NCBI GenBank assembly: GCA_965199855.1
Contig: OZ241326.1
Coordinates: 1,888,001-1,952,000, forward strand
Length of the DNA: 64,000 bases
Source: a bacterium
Lineage (GTDB): Bacteria > UBA8248
Reading direction: 5' to 3'
This document shows, in pieces, positions 23,248 through 27,080 of the stretch. The translations under genes and the position numbers were made by a program. The notes beneath the pieces are model-generated. The model did not search any database and was not told where the DNA came from. It worked only from the letters and a program-made list of their open reading frames with translations. How positions within the stretch are numbered: position 1 is the stretch's first letter; every line of letters begins with the position of its first letter.

Positions 23248-24540
23248 ATGACAGTAGAATCAAGCAACAGCGAAACAATCGTCCTTCACGCCGGATACCG
23301 CAAGGACGACGCCACGAACGCCGTGGCCGTGCCGATTTACCAGACGTCCTCCTACCAGTTCGACAGCACGGAGCACGCGGCCAATCTCTTCTCGCTGAAG
23401 GAACTGGGCAACATCTACACCCGCATCATGAACCCCACGAACGACATTCTGGAGAAGCGGCTGGCCGCTCTGGAGGGCGGCGTGGGCGCCCTCGCCGTCT
23501 CCTCGGGGCAATCCGCCTCGATGATGGCCGTGATGAACGTCGCGCGCGCCGGCGACAACATCGTGAGTTCGACGGACCTCTACGGCGGCACGTGGAACCT
23601 GTTCGCCAACCAGCTGGAGGACATCGGCATCGAGTGCCGCTTCGTGGACCCCGCAGACCCGCAAAGCTTCGCCGAAGCGACCGACGACAGGACGCGCGCC
23701 TACTACGCCGAGACGCTGCCAAACCCGAAGCTGCGCGTTTTCCCGATCAGGGAGGTCGCCGACATCGGGCGCGCGATGGGGATTCCCCTCATCATGGACA
23801 ACACGGCGGCGCACGGCCTCTGCAAGCCCTTCGAGCACGGCGCGGCCGTCATCGCCTCCTCGTGCACGAAATACATCGGCGGGCACGGCAACTCCATCGG
23901 CGGCGTCATCATCGACGGCGGAAACTTCGACTGGGCGGCGCACCCCGAGCGGCAGCCCTACCTGAACCAGCCCGACCCGAGCTATCACGGCGCCGTGTGG
24001 ACGGAGGCCGTCAAGCCGCTCGGCCCCATCGCCTACATCATCAAGGCGCGCGTCACGCTCCTGCGCGACTCCGGCCAGGCGACCAGCCCCTTCAACGCCT
24101 TCCTGTTTCTCCAGGGGCTGGAAACCCTGCCCCTGCGCATGGAGCGACACTGCGAAAACGCCGAGAAGGCGGCGGACTTCCTGAAAAACCACCCCAAGGT
24201 GAGCGCCGTGATCTACCCGGGCCTCATGGAGGGCGAATTCCGCCGCCGCGCCGACGCCTACCTCAAGGGCGGCTACGGCGGCCTGTGCGGCTTCGAGCTC
24301 AAGGGCGGGAACGAGGCCGGCCAGAACTTCATCAACGCGCTCAAGATGTTCTACCACGTGGCGAACATCGGCGATTCGAGGAGTCTGGCGATTCACCCGG
24401 CGAGCACCACGCACTCCCAGCTCAGCCCGGAGGAGCAGGAGAAAACGGGCGTGACGCCGGGCTACGTGCGCCTCTCCATCGGCATCGAGCACATCGACGA
24501 CATCATCGCCGACCTCTCCCAGGCGCTGGACGCCGCGTAG
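23248..24540 (+). CDS. metY: O-acetylhomoserine aminocarboxypropyltransferase (copy 1)
   Basis: AVPIYQTSSY, GNIYTRIMNPT, SCTKYIGGHG (PLP Lys), [27 protein letters not shown]. Confidence 0.93.
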   Translation: MTVESSNSETIVLHAGYRKDDATNAVAVPIYQTSSYQFDSTEHAANLFSLKELGNIYTRIMNPTNDILEKRLAALEGGVGALAVSSGQSASMMAVMNVARAGDNIVSSTDLYGGTWNLFANQLEDIGIECRFVDPADPQSFAEATDDRTRAYYAETLPNPKLRVFPIREVADIGRAMGIPLIMDNTAAHGLCKPFEHGAAVIASSCTKYIGGHGNSIGGVIIDGGNFDWAAHPERQPYLNQPDPSYHGAVWTEAVKPLGPIAYIIKARVTLLRDSGQATSPFNAFLFLQGLETLPLRMERHCENAEKAADFLKNHPKVSAVIYPGLMEGEFRRRADAYLKGGYGGLCGFELKGGNEAGQNFINALKMFYHVANIGDSRSLAIHPASTTHSQLSPEEQEKTGVTPGYVRLSIGIEHIDDIIADLSQALDAA

Positions 24541-24555
24541 AACCGACGGAAAGCG

Positions 24556-24592
24556 AAAAGAGGGCGGCCCCGATCGGGCCGCCCTCTTTTTT
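24556..24592. terminator. bidirectional rho-independent terminator between metY and the CRISPR locus
   Basis: AAAAGAGGGCGGCCC-CGATC-GGGCCGCCCTCTTTT(TT): 15-bp perfect inverted repeat with A/T tails on both sides. Confidence 0.9.
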
Positions 24593-24679: not shown

Positions 24680-24911
24680 CGGGTCGTCAATCCCCACCGC
24701 ACAGGGGCCTATATCCCGCGCAAAACATCCACACCCTGAACTAGTTGCGGTCAATCCCCACCGCACAGGGGCCTATATCTCCGCGGACAGCGCGTCTACG
24801 TCACGCATTGTTGCGGTCAATCCCCACCGCACAGGGGCCTATATCGCAATGTCACGTCGACCTCAATGTTTGTGGGTTGCGGTCAATCCCCACCGCACAG
24901 GGGCCTATATC
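24680..24911 (-). CRISPR. CRISPR array, 4 repeats / 3 spacers
   Basis: 36-nt repeat GTTGCGGTCAATCCCCACCGCACAGGGGCCTATATC exact at 24744-24779, 24810-24845, 24876-24911; copy at 24680-24715 is identical over its last 30 nt; unique spacers of 28, 30, 30 nt. Orientation inferred from the degenerate terminal repeat and the effector gene. Confidence 0.95.
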
Positions 24912-25057: not shown

Positions 25058-26980
25058 TCAGCCCTCCATGGCTTTTGTGGCGAGGTTCATCGCCCCGTTC
25101 TCGTCCCTGTCATGCTCCGTTCCGCACTCCGGGCATGTCCACCTCAACCCGGGGTCCGCCTCGTTCTGGTAATCGCATTTCGGGGTGGAGCACTTTCTGC
25201 TCGTATATGCCGGATTTATGTGGACGACGCGAACTCCCTCCCGTTCCGCGCAATTCTTTACGGCGCCGATAAAGACGCCCGGCGCCGCGTCGAACAGTTG
25301 CCCCCGCGATTTTTTTGTATGCTCTCCGCCCTTTTTCTCCTTGTCCTTGAATTCGCGGAGCAGGTTCCCGTCCTCGATCCCTATGGGCAGGCGTTCCGCT
25401 TTGGCTTTGTCCACGATTTCTTTCGCCTTCAGGCGATAAAAGTAGTCGCGCTGTCCGATGAGCCGCTTCACCCGATAATGGTATTCATGGTATCGGCCTT
25501 CCCATGATCTCGCCCATCTCGCTATCGCGTCGCGCGCGGCGTCCTCGTTTTCCGCCAGCGCGTCGGGTCTCTCGCGAAGGGCGAGAACAAGGCTGTAAAC
25601 CGTTTCAAAACTGACGGTTCGCTTCTCGCGCTCCGCGTTGCGGACGATGGCGCGAATGATTCTACGGAATGAATCTTTTTCGTTCGCACCGGCCCATGCC
25701 TTTGTTTTCCTGAGCAATGGCCCGACTGCGAGACCAAAAGCGACCGCGCTCTTGTCGAGAGCGGACTTCAACTTGTTCACGCGCTTGGTGGCGTCCCGCC
25801 ATTCCTCGCGGACGGTGATGTGTTCGGGTTTGAAAGCGGTTTTGGGATCATCGGATTCGCGCTTTATGGCGACGGTCGCCGTTCGCAGCTCCCCCTCGAT
25901 TTCTTTCCAGCCGATGTCGATTCCCATCCCCGCGCGAGAAGAGGGAGCGATGCCGGCGGGCGCGTCGGCTTCAACGAAAAAGCAGACGTGGTATTTGAAC
26001 TTGCCCTTCCCGATGCGGCGGCGAACGAGTTGCGCGTTCTTGATGAGCGCGCCTTCCGGGATGAGGCGGTGCAGAACCAGATCGAAATGGCAATATACGT
26101 CCGAACTCCCCGTTCCCTTTTTCGTGGCGAGCTTGAGGCGGGCGCGGCGAATCCGAGCCTCTTCCCCGTTTGGCTTCTTCCGCCGCCGCTTTTCCCATCG
26201 CCGCTCCAGCTTTTCCAGTTTCTGCTCCGTTTCTTCCTTCGGCAGTTTCTTGTTCCGAATCTTGCGGCGATCCTGCTCGAAAGCCTCCCGCTCATCAAGA
26301 ATGACGAAAGGGCGCTTGTCTTTGTCTTTCCTTTTGCGGAGATCTTCAAAGAAAACGCCGTCTGCGGTTTGTTTTTCCCAAGTGCGGCTGAGGCGGTAAT
26401 GGAAATAACCTGATTTTCTTTTGTGGAATGCGTGAAATCTCAAATTGTAATCACCGGCGATTTCCCCCGCGCTTTTCTTCGTCAACGCTTTGAAGAATTC
26501 GCCTCGTGACGTCCTGAATTTTTCAAGAATATCTCCGGCTGTCTTGCTCATAAGTTCGCACTGATCTACTTGGGCCGCCTCCCGCAAGCGACGTTCAGCC
26601 TCCTTTTTGCACTCCTTCTCCCTGGCGGCGAACTCGGGATTCTCCTTGATGAGCGCGTTCGCCTCCTTGCGCGGCTTCTTGATGTCCTCCCACAGTTTTT
26701 TCCTCTCGTCGATGAGAGCTTCCGGCGGCTCATCGCCTTCGCGCTTCGCCTCGCCAAGCGAGCGTTCGATGATTTCCAGTCTCTCGTCGAGTTTCCGATA
26801 GGCGGGGCTGGCCTCCCGCCGCAGGGAATTATAGGCCGCAACGTCTTTTTCGTGGATTTCGACCAGATTGTTCCGCAACCGGTTGGCTCGCTGGAGCTCG
26901 TTTTCCCCCTCGGCGGGAAACGGCTCCACGGGAACCGCGCCGTATTTCATAACGAACTTTCTGGGTTCTCGCGTTTCCAT
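25058..26980 (-). CDS. compact type V CRISPR effector, Cas12m (V-U1)-like, TnpB-derived RuvC protein
   Basis: RuvC-I GIDIGWK, RuvC-II IGIED, AYTSRKC...C...CPECG zinc ribbon, Ruv[15 protein letters not shown]; stop 146 bp from the array. Start is ATG 26980 or ATG 27004 (the latter overlaps the tRNA CCA). Confidence 0.88.
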
Positions 26981-27003
26981 TTCCTTCTCTTCAAAATAAA
27001 CCA

Positions 27004-27080
27004 TGGTCGGGGCGAGAGGATTTGAACCTCCGGCCTCCTGCTCCCGAAGCAGGCGCGCTACCAGGCTGCGCTACGCCCCG
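27004..27080 (-). tRNA. tRNA-Pro(CGG)
   Basis: reverse complement CGGGGCGTAGCGCAGCCTGGTAGCGCG...TTCGGGA...GGTTCAAATCC...GACCA, 77 nt. Confidence 0.95.

What the first reader, a model, noticed from the sequence alone, without database searches (positions are those of the whole stretch)
24876..24911. CRISPR repeat encodes an H-type pseudoknot, suggesting a tracrRNA-independent guide
Seen: the minus-strand repeat reads GAUAUAGG-CCCC-UG-UGCGGU-GGGG-AUUG-ACCGCA-AC. UGCGGU pairs with ACCGCA (6 bp) and CCCC pairs with the GGGG in that stem's loop, with loops of 2, 0 and 4 nt. Recalled from memory and needing verification: the MmCas12m repeat has the same 4-2-6-4-4-6-AC layout with different bases. 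If correct, this is covariation-level support for V-M affiliation and for minus-strand transcription, independent of the protein. I found no anti-repeat in the flanks.
Basis: partly seen in the sequence, partly recalled or inferred. Interest (0 to 1): 0.7.

Follow-up and report, generated by a model that had tools for sequence, protein, structure and literature searches.

The report
Cas12m CRISPR repeat with known pseudoknot

Summary
On the minus strand, the 36-nt repeat at 24876-24911 has a 4-bp helix (CCCC/GGGG) crossing a 6-bp helix (UGCGGU/ACCGCA), with loops of 2, 0 and 4 nt. Only 5 of 2000 dinucleotide shuffles give a pseudoknot this good.

Four distinct repeats from related loci keep 40 of 40 pairs. 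All six pairs of the long helix and one pair of the short helix show changes on both sides.

The neighbouring 648-aa protein is a full-length Cas12m relative. The pairing matches, position for position, the crRNA scaffold described for MmCas12m2: a pseudoknot helix pairing positions -22..-17 with -8..-3, plus G(-23), A(-2) and C(-1) (PMC10442227).

Absence of a tracrRNA is already shown experimentally for the family (PMC11013384). No anti-repeat exists anywhere in this genome.

One part of the reading fails. Watson-Crick covariation cannot tell the strand. Strand comes from co-orientation with the effector, decay of the distal repeat, and the strand-specific G/A/C nucleotides.

No RNA data and no protospacers were found.

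Verdict: a new member of a known kind, of low interest. This scan has already noted the same fold in phage genomes on other DNA.

The parts
24876..24911 (-). CRISPR repeat 1 (leader-proximal), 36 nt; the finding itself
24900..24903 (-). 5' arm of the 4-bp stem (CCCC; repeat positions 9-12 = -28..-25)
   Evidence: C-G in 3 and A-U in 1 of 4 distinct repeats at the outer pair; the other 3 pairs never vary
24892..24897 (-). 5' arm of the 6-bp pseudoknot helix (UGCGGU; positions 15-20 = -22..-17)
   Evidence: all 6 pairs show changes on both sides; 24 of 24 cells paired
24888..24891 (-). 3' arm of the 4-bp stem (GGGG; positions 21-24 = -16..-13)
24878..24883 (-). 3' arm of the 6-bp pseudoknot helix (ACCGCA; positions 29-34 = -8..-3)
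24876..24877 (-). Invariant 3'-terminal A(-2) C(-1). With invariant G at position 14 (-23, window 24898) these correspond to the G(-23):A(-2) pair and the C(-1) that His269/Arg270 read in MmCas12m2
   Evidence: invariant columns G14, A35, C36; PMC10442227 passages; (His269-Arg270 of 8hio align with invariant H312-R313)
24846..24875 (-). spacer 1 (30 nt), no target found
24810..24845 (-). repeat 2
24780..24809 (-). spacer 2 (30 nt), no target found
24744..24779 (-). repeat 3
24716..24743 (-). spacer 3 (28 nt), no target found
24680..24715 (-). Terminal degenerate repeat. The stem and the 5' arm of the pseudoknot helix are intact; the 3' arm and the terminal AC are lost
   Evidence: 86% copy; differences lie in the first 6 + strand bases. 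The same pattern occurs at the distal end of the arrays in L004, L005, L084 and L086
24912..25057 (-). Leader between the effector stop codon and repeat 1; the promoter is inferred, not found
   Evidence: one search found 0 sigma-70-like sites; alike only in the close relative L086
25058..27004 (-). cas12m-family effector gene, 648 aa (P0001); RuvC D363/E544/D634; zinc finger C605, C610, C624, C627
24559..24591 (.). 14-bp G+C-rich hairpin with U tracts on both strands. Probably a bidirectional terminator ending both the metY-like gene (+) and the array transcript (-)
   Evidence: -35.3 and -36.1 kcal/mol; z -5.9 and -5.4; the pattern scan did not list it

Best explanation
This is a chromosomal type V-M (Cas12m) CRISPR locus. 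The effector gene (25058-27004, minus strand) is followed on the same strand by a leader and a four-repeat, three-spacer array.

Inferred mechanism:
- The array is transcribed on the minus strand, from the leader towards the hairpin at 24559-24591.
- Each repeat folds into a 4-bp stem (positions 9-12 with 21-24) stacked on a 6-bp pseudoknot helix (15-20 with 29-34), closed by G14/A35 and ending in C36.
- Cas12m grips this compact handle with its WED and RuvC domains. The invariant His312-Arg313 pair reads the last nucleotides.
- The protein cuts the precursor near the 5' end of the repeat.
- The result is a single crRNA of about 50 nt (roughly a 33-nt handle plus a 17-20 nt guide), with no tracrRNA.
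- The complex then binds PAM-flanked DNA and blocks transcription or replication, probably without cutting.

Shown here: the anatomy of the array, the fold's covariation, the protein's family membership, and the absence of an anti-repeat.

Inferred from published work on relatives: the transcription strand, processing, guide length, and DNA binding without cleavage.
For: Effector:
- phmmer of P0001 against PDB sequences hits UnCas12m4a (23vu, 4.3e-55, two stretches covering residues 17-232 and 286-647) and another Cas12m (23vw, 1.2e-10).
- A profile of 22 relatives hits 23vu (4.6e-223), 23vw (4.3e-82), 8pm4 (named 'Transposase' in the listing; I take it to be GoCas12m, 1.3e-47) and 8hhl/8hio Cas12m2 (about 9e-44), all over nearly the full length. 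The next hits (TranC, TnpB, Cas12f) cover only the C-terminal part.

Fold:
- An H-type pseudoknot of 10 Watson-Crick pairs occurs in 5 of 2000 dinucleotide shuffles.
- On 4 distinct repeats (window = L086, L004, L005, L084), 40 of 40 cells pair and 7 of 10 pairs change on both sides. No shuffle of 500 reaches any of the five measures. With partners slid by 1-3 columns, only 37-52% of cells pair.

Match to solved structures:
- PMC10442227 passages give the same positions for the 6-bp helix, G(-23):A(-2) and C(-1).
- PMC11013384 passages report a triplex plus pseudoknot in GoCas12m and no tracrRNA.
- Passages of the preprint 10.64898/2026.03.26.714355 describe two crossing helices in PmCas12m and a crRNA of about 33 nt repeat plus about 17 nt guide.

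Protein and RNA are conserved together. His269-Arg270 of MmCas12m2, which read C(-1) and stack on G(-23), align with H312-R313, invariant in 22 of 22 aligned relatives. G14, A35 and C36 are invariant in the repeats.

Polarity: in 5 of 5 loci the array lies downstream of the effector on its strand, and the distal repeat has decayed in its 3' part.

No anti-repeat longer than 13 nt exists in the genome.
Against: - There are no RNA data. None of the 17 runs that hold the stretch is on record as RNA, so strand, processing sites and expression are untested.
- Covariation rests on only 4 distinct repeats. Two of them come from the same genus, and Watson-Crick-only pairs cannot tell the strand.
- Three of the four pairs of the short stem never vary, which says nothing for or against them.
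- No promoter-like site was found in the leader.
- No protospacer was found, so activity and PAM are unknown.
- The array has only three spacers. In a sister species (G034) the effector carries two in-frame stops, so the system may be decaying in this lineage.
- The RuvC triad here is the canonical D-E-D, unlike H-D-D in MmCas12m2 and GoCas12m. 'Binding without cutting' therefore rests on the report that D-E-D orthologues also fail to cut (PMC11013384 passages), not on this protein.
Confidence: 0.9

Rival explanations
1. The pseudoknot is real, but the locus is an inactive remnant. On this view the array is no longer expressed or used, and the repeat structure is inherited rather than currently selected in this genome.
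For: - Only three spacers, and no adaptation genes in the locus.
- No target found for any spacer.
- The sister species G034 has the same repeat but an effector with 1 TGA and 1 TAA inside, and no Cas1 in a 99%-complete genome.
- Only 3 of 51 genomes of the phylum carry a relative.
Against: - The effector ORF here is intact over 648 aa, with every invariant family residue present.
- The three functional repeats are identical, and only the terminal one has decayed.
- The spacers of G000 and G034 are all different although the repeats are identical, so spacers were exchanged after the two diverged.
- G024 in the same genus carries a 13-repeat array.
Confidence: 0.12
2. Only the 6-bp hairpin is functional. 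On this view the CCCC/GGGG complementarity is a by-product of G+C-rich sequence, so the repeat is a plain stem-loop and not a pseudoknot.
For: - Nested folding returns only the 6-bp hairpin.
- 3 of 4 pairs of the short helix never vary, so they offer no covariation.
- No pseudoknot-aware folding program was available.
Against: - The outer pair of the short helix changes from C-G to A-U in L084.
- The invariant C and G runs sit exactly where solved Cas12m complexes have the stem that stacks on the pseudoknot helix (PMC10442227 and the PmCas12m preprint, passages).
- A 4+6 arrangement with these loops is rare in shuffles (5 of 2000).
Confidence: 0.04
3. The array is read from the + strand and serves another effector, for example the type II-C Cas9 elsewhere in the genome, together with a tracrRNA.
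For: - The genome has a Cas9/Cas1 locus with 36-nt repeats and 30-nt spacers.
- On the + strand, the ends of the V-M repeat resemble those of that repeat (direct comparison of the outputs).
- Watson-Crick covariation fits either strand.
Against: - The interiors of the two repeats are unrelated, so a Cas9 tracrRNA anti-repeat could not pair.
- No anti-repeat to this repeat exists in the genome.
- The array sits directly behind a cas12m gene in 5 of 5 loci, including metagenome contigs with no Cas9 in view.
- The decayed repeat is the one farthest from cas12m.
- G14, A35 and C36 match the Cas12m-specific contacts only on the minus strand.
Confidence: 0.02

Closest known systems
MmCas12m2 crRNA scaffold (Mycolicibacterium mucogenicum; PDB 8HHL/8HHM/8HIO; Omura et al. 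2023, PMC10442227, passages read)
   Same: - A 36-nt repeat-derived handle placed 5' of the guide.
- A 6-bp pseudoknot helix pairing -22..-17 with -8..-3.
- G(-23), A(-2) and C(-1).
- A four-nucleotide loop at -12..-9.
- G residues at -16 and -14 in the stem.
- The WED His-Arg pair is conserved.
   Different: - Different bases in the helices. The paper gives C at -22 and -17 and G at -8 and -3, where ours has U and A.
- U instead of the flipped-out A at -24.
- The protein is only distantly related. The single-sequence search did not reach 8hhl; only the profile did.
- The RuvC triad is D-E-D here and H-D-D there.
UnCas12m4a (PDB 23vu/23vv)
   Same: Closest solved protein. The match covers two stretches (4.3e-55 single sequence, 4.6e-223 with the clade profile), and it has the same D-E-D triad and HR motif in the printed alignment.
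   Different: - About 30-35% identity.
- Our protein has roughly 40 extra, highly charged residues (233-285) where 23vu has 14.
- I found no paper for this entry: the search 'Cas12m4' returned 0 papers. Its RNA was therefore not compared.
GoCas12m and PmCas12m crRNAs (PMC11013384; preprint 10.64898/2026.03.26.714355; passages read)
   Same: - A single crRNA of about 50 nt with no tracrRNA.
[quoted passage not shown]
- The loci lack adaptation genes.
   Different: - H-D-D (Go) and N-D-D (Pm) RuvC triads.
- PmCas12m's reported helices are 3 and 4 bp in a 33-nt scaffold.
- The repeat figure and the supplementary tables were not visible to me, so no base-by-base comparison was made.
TnpB omega/reRNA triplex-pseudoknot core and the Cas12a 5' handle
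   Same: All have a compact pseudoknot directly 5' of the guide, bound by WED/RuvC. PMC11013384 itself likens the GoCas12m crRNA to the TnpB reRNA core. The Cas12a comparison is recalled, not checked.
   Different: TnpB RNA is about 150 nt and is not array-encoded. The Cas12a handle is about 20 nt with a different fold register. The proteins match only in the C-terminal RuvC/TNB part.

Membership tests
Type V-M CRISPR-Cas12m | Single effector homologous over its full length to characterised Cas12m proteins | tested here: met
   23vu 4.3e-55, 23vw 1.2e-10; the clade profile hits 23vu, 23vw, 8pm4, 8hhl and 8hio over nearly the full length; non-Cas12m hits are C-terminal only.
Type V-M CRISPR-Cas12m | Compact size (about 600 aa) with a RuvC-like domain and a C-terminal zinc-finger/TNB domain | tested here: met
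   648 aa. Pfam Cas12f1-like_TNB at 578-641, 3.6e-17. Invariant C605, C610, C624, C627, D363 and D634; E544 in at least 90%.
Type V-M CRISPR-Cas12m | CRISPR array next to the effector, with 36-nt repeats | tested here: met
   The same arrangement occurs in L001/L086, L004, L005 and L084.
Type V-M CRISPR-Cas12m | Repeat forms a stem plus a pseudoknot ending in A-C, with G at -23 | tested here: met
   The positions match PMC10442227 passages.
Type V-M CRISPR-Cas12m | No tracrRNA | tested here: met
   Sequence level only: no anti-repeat longer than 13 nt in the 3.04-Mb genome. Co-purifying RNA could not be tested.
Type V-M CRISPR-Cas12m | No adaptation genes in the locus | tested here: met
   The neighbours are a Cys/Met PLP enzyme, tRNA-Pro, PCMT and SurE. 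The only Cas1 lies about 935 kb away, beside a Cas9.
Type V-M CRISPR-Cas12m | WED His-Arg pair that reads the last scaffold nucleotides | tested here: met
   His269-Arg270 of 8hio align with H312-R313, invariant in 22 of 22 sequences.
Type V-M CRISPR-Cas12m | PAM-dependent DNA binding without cleavage; self-processing of pre-crRNA | not testable with these tools
   The RuvC triad is D-E-D. PMC11013384 passages report that D-E-D orthologues also fail to cut. No protospacer was found, so no PAM could be derived.

The most novel reading that the evidence does not exclude
The Cas12m array, which has no adaptation genes of its own, may be supplied with spacers in trans by the Cas1-Cas2 of the type II-C Cas9 system in the same genome.

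For this reading:
- Both arrays use 36-nt repeats and 30-nt spacers.
- Read on the window + strand, the two repeats share their first 4-6 and last 5-7 bases while their interiors are unrelated.
- G000 and G034 have identical V-M repeats but no shared spacer.
- The sister species with two Cas1 genes (G024) has 12 V-M spacers, whereas the one with no Cas1 (G034) has a broken effector.

Against it:
- The 36/30 geometry is also seen in unrelated metagenome Cas12m arrays (L004, L005).
- The similarity of the repeat ends is weak in G024.
Probability: 0.15. Interest if true: 0.45.

Novelty: new member of a known kind. Interest (0 to 1): 0.2.

Why it matters
It matters little for basic knowledge. The pseudoknotted, tracrRNA-free Cas12m handle has been solved in at least three orthologues and is already used in engineering.

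The locus does add three things:
- A divergent D-E-D-type Cas12m, 24-36% identical to its nearest relatives outside the genus.
- An unusual setting: the chromosome of a bacterium whose DNA turns up in runs labelled sponge metagenome.
- A clean natural covariation series for the handle, useful when designing orthogonal Cas12m guide scaffolds.

The co-resident type II-C system also gives a small, testable lead on how V-M arrays obtain spacers.

Tried and rejected
- RNA evidence: the look-up of sequencing runs listed 21 runs, 17 of which hold the stretch. No RNA holder is listed.
- Read laying on four holders (X2, X4, X8, X14): all are contigs that break at the repeats, so neither spacer variation nor transcript ends could be read.
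- Protospacers:
  - own genome: best off-array match 18 nt with 1 mismatch;
  - phages: none;
  - plasmids: none;
  - the 51 genomes of the phylum: best hits are 19 of 20 nt, five of them repeat bases, at a site shared by several genomes, and 83% over 39 nt in G025/G026, which the local re-check did not return. I rejected these as chance.
  - I did not scan the viral collection with spacers. That needs typed stretches lying next to one already typed, so phage targets there remain open.
- More Cas12m loci for covariation:
  - the genome-contig scan gave only L001, plus an unrelated C-terminal hit;
  - the metagenome scan kept 80 of 394 relatives, of which only L004 and L005 are full-length; L081 is partial and has no array;
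  - the viral scan with the full alignment gave only C-terminal TnpB-like matches, and the three longest (L107, L115, L143) have no array;
  - the viral scan with a WED-motif alignment found 80 pattern matches, none of them a relative;
  - the viral scan with a repeat pattern found 109 stretches; the 80 listed have a single match each, so they are chance, not arrays;
  - tblastn against plasmids found no match.
- Rfam: no family matches the repeat at E up to 10; only the tRNA and spurious sRNA hits appear.
- Promoter scan of the leader: 0 sites.
- Leader alignment: conserved only between close relatives.
- Pseudoknot-aware folding: no such program in the box.
- Supplementary tables of PMC11013384 (134 Cas12m variants and their repeats) and all figures were not available. 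They would allow a far larger covariation test.

Full report
**What is there**

Window 24680-24911 holds a small CRISPR array. Three identical 36-nt repeats lie at 24744-24779, 24810-24845 and 24876-24911. A fourth copy at 24680-24715 is 86% identical. The spacers are 28, 30 and 30 nt. A fifth 64% 'copy' that the repeat finder listed at 24004-24039 lies inside a coding region 676 nt away, and I dropped it as chance. The repeat occurs nowhere else in the window (3 matches at up to 3 mismatches; 0 of 100 shuffles reach that) or in the 3.04-Mb genome.

The finding's coordinates are the copy nearest the adjacent gene.

**Is the pseudoknot more than chance?**

An exhaustive search for H-type pseudoknots in the 36-mer returns helix 9-12/21-24 (4 bp) and helix 15-20/29-34 (6 bp), with loops of 2, 0 and 4 nt. 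An equally good pseudoknot (at least 10 Watson-Crick pairs under the same loop limits) appears in 5 of 2000 dinucleotide shuffles and 9 of 2000 mononucleotide shuffles.

Ordinary nested folding sees only the 6-bp hairpin (-9.7 kcal/mol). By that measure the repeat is unremarkable: z = -0.44, and 54 of 200 shuffles fold at least as well. The + strand gives -8.2 kcal/mol and z = -0.16. Taken alone, the two helices score -7.8 and -9.7 kcal/mol. No pseudoknot-aware program was available.

**The neighbouring gene**

ORF 25058-27004 (minus strand, 648 aa, P0001) has only the Cas12f1-like TNB domain in Pfam and scores below the cut-off for TnpB/Cas12f models in NCBIfam.

Against PDB sequences its best hits are UnCas12m4a (23vu, 4.3e-55, two stretches covering residues 17-232 and 286-647) and another Cas12m (23vw).

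An all-against-all HMMER search found 1317 relatives at E up to 1e-3, but only 22 at 1e-30 or better. A profile of 22 of these hits 23vu, 23vw, 8pm4 (taken to be GoCas12m) and 8hhl/8hio (Cas12m2) over nearly the full length. TranC, TnpB and Cas12f match only the C-terminal part.

The RuvC positions are D363, E544 and D634. MmCas12m2 and GoCas12m have H, D and D at the same places (PMC11013384 passages). His269-Arg270 of MmCas12m2 align with H312-R313, which are invariant in all 22 aligned sequences.

**Comparison with the literature**

- Omura et al. (PMC10442227, passages only) describe a 36-nt scaffold. C(-22)..C(-17) pair with G(-8)..G(-3). G(-23) pairs non-canonically with A(-2). C(-1) is read by His269/Arg270. 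A(-24) is flipped out. Loop residues lie at -12, -11 and -9. The stem stacks coaxially on the pseudoknot helix, and the 5' end (-36..-30) is disordered.
- Numbering our repeat the same way puts UGCGGU at -22..-17, ACCGCA at -8..-3, G at -23, A at -2, C at -1, GGGG at -16..-13 and AUUG at -12..-9. The borders of the short stem in MmCas12m2 were not in the text I saw.
- Bigelyte et al. (PMC11013384, passages) found no tracrRNA in RNA bound to Cas12m orthologues and a single 50-60 nt crRNA. They also report a triplex plus pseudoknot in GoCas12m, predicted 'stem I/stem II' in eight repeats, and no DNA cleavage by D-E-D, H-D-D or N-D-D variants.
- A 2026 preprint on PmCas12m (passages) reports two crossing helices and a mature crRNA of about 33 nt repeat plus 17 nt guide.

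The fold and the independence from tracrRNA are therefore established for the family.

**Covariation**

I found five loci with a relative of the effector next to an array.

| Locus | Source | Effector vs P0001 | Array |
|---|---|---|---|
| window | own genome (G000) | the query itself | 3 identical repeats plus a degenerate fourth |
| L001 = L086 | sister species G034 | 79% identical | identical repeat |
| L084 | G024, same genus | relative (clade profile) | 13 repeats |
| L004 | metagenome contig | 28% identical | 2 identical repeats plus a degenerate third |
| L005 | metagenome contig | 29% identical | 1 full repeat plus a degenerate second |

These give four distinct repeats, all 36 nt, which align without gaps. 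With the structure written as ........((((..[[[[[[))))....]]]]]].., the counts are:
- 40 of 40 cells pair.
- All 6 pairs of the long helix, and the outer pair of the short helix, change on both sides.
- The other 3 pairs never vary.
- No shuffle of 500 reaches any of the five measures.
- Sliding the partners by 1-3 columns leaves 37-52% of cells paired and at most 1 covarying pair.

G14, A35 and C36 are invariant. The sample is small and two of the four repeats come from one genus, so this is good support for the fold but not a statistical proof.

**Strand**

All pairs are Watson-Crick, so covariation fits either strand.

Three other observations support the minus strand:
- The array follows the effector on its own strand in 5 of 5 loci.
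- In each locus the repeat farthest from the effector has decayed in its 3' part. It loses the 3' arm of the long helix and the terminal AC, as expected for a last repeat that precedes no guide.
- G(-23), A(-2) and C(-1), together with the conserved His-Arg pair, fit only this strand.

A strong hairpin with U tracts on both strands at 24559-24591 could end the transcript. No promoter-like site was found in the leader. No RNA run was available.

**Context**

- The locus has no adaptation genes. Its neighbours are a Cys/Met PLP enzyme, tRNA-Pro(CGG) abutting the effector's ATG, PCMT and SurE.
- Only 3 of 51 genomes of the phylum carry a relative, all in one genus. In G034 the gene has two in-frame stops.
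- The genome also holds a type II-C Cas9-Cas1 locus about 935 kb away, with at least 23 repeats of 36 nt and 30-nt spacers.
- No spacer has a credible target in the own genome, in phages, in plasmids or in the phylum's genomes.

**Verdict**

It is wrong that covariation gives the strand, and it is not novel.

The locus is a new, divergent member of type V-M. This scan has already noted the Cas12m pseudoknot on other DNA, in phage genomes. Those notes agree with this reading but are not independent evidence.

Noticed in passing
window 27004-27080 (-): tRNA-Pro(CGG) ends exactly at the first base of the effector's annotated ATG (27004). The true start may therefore be a downstream Met (M9 or M19), and the cas12m-array unit sits directly behind a tRNA gene, a common integration site.
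   Followed up: partly
G000:C1:975000-981400 (outside the window; L277 9036-13286 and array from 13896): A type II-C CRISPR-Cas9 locus: Cas9 of 992 aa, Cas1 of the NMENI type, a 112-aa ORF that may be Cas2, and at least 23 repeats of 36 nt with 30-nt spacers. The repeat shares only its termini with the V-M repeat. It is a possible trans source of spacers for the V-M array.
   Followed up: partly
L281 6602-7881 (G024 contig C6): A 30-copy array with a 43-nt period (about a 25-nt repeat and an 18-nt spacer) lies beside a second Cas1 on a 9.8-kb contig. Such short spacers are unusual for a CRISPR array. The type was not determined.
   Followed up: no
L086 1501-3447 (G034): In the sister species the cas12m orthologue (79% identical) carries 1 TGA and 1 TAA in frame. 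Its array keeps three perfect repeats with entirely different spacers. That genome shows no Cas1.
   Followed up: partly
window 26150-26308 (-), residues 233-285 of P0001: A highly charged Lys/Arg/Glu-rich stretch of about 53 residues lies where UnCas12m4a (23vu) has 14. This insertion, just before the WED His-Arg motif, accounts for most of the extra length (648 against about 590-610 aa).
   Followed up: no
L084 963-1094: Two adjacent repeat-spacer units of the G024 Cas12m array are identical, so one spacer is duplicated.
   Followed up: no
window 24559-24591: A 14-bp G+C-rich hairpin is flanked by U tracts on both strands (about -35 kcal/mol, z about -5.5). It is probably a bidirectional terminator between the metY-like gene and the array. 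The simple terminator scan missed it.
   Followed up: yes
G000:C1:1228600-1229000 (outside the window): A unit of about 21 nt (CCCGATTCTGGATTGTTCAAG) recurs at irregular spacing of about 60-75 nt in at least five copies. It may be a dispersed repeat or a mini-array and was not examined.
   Followed up: no
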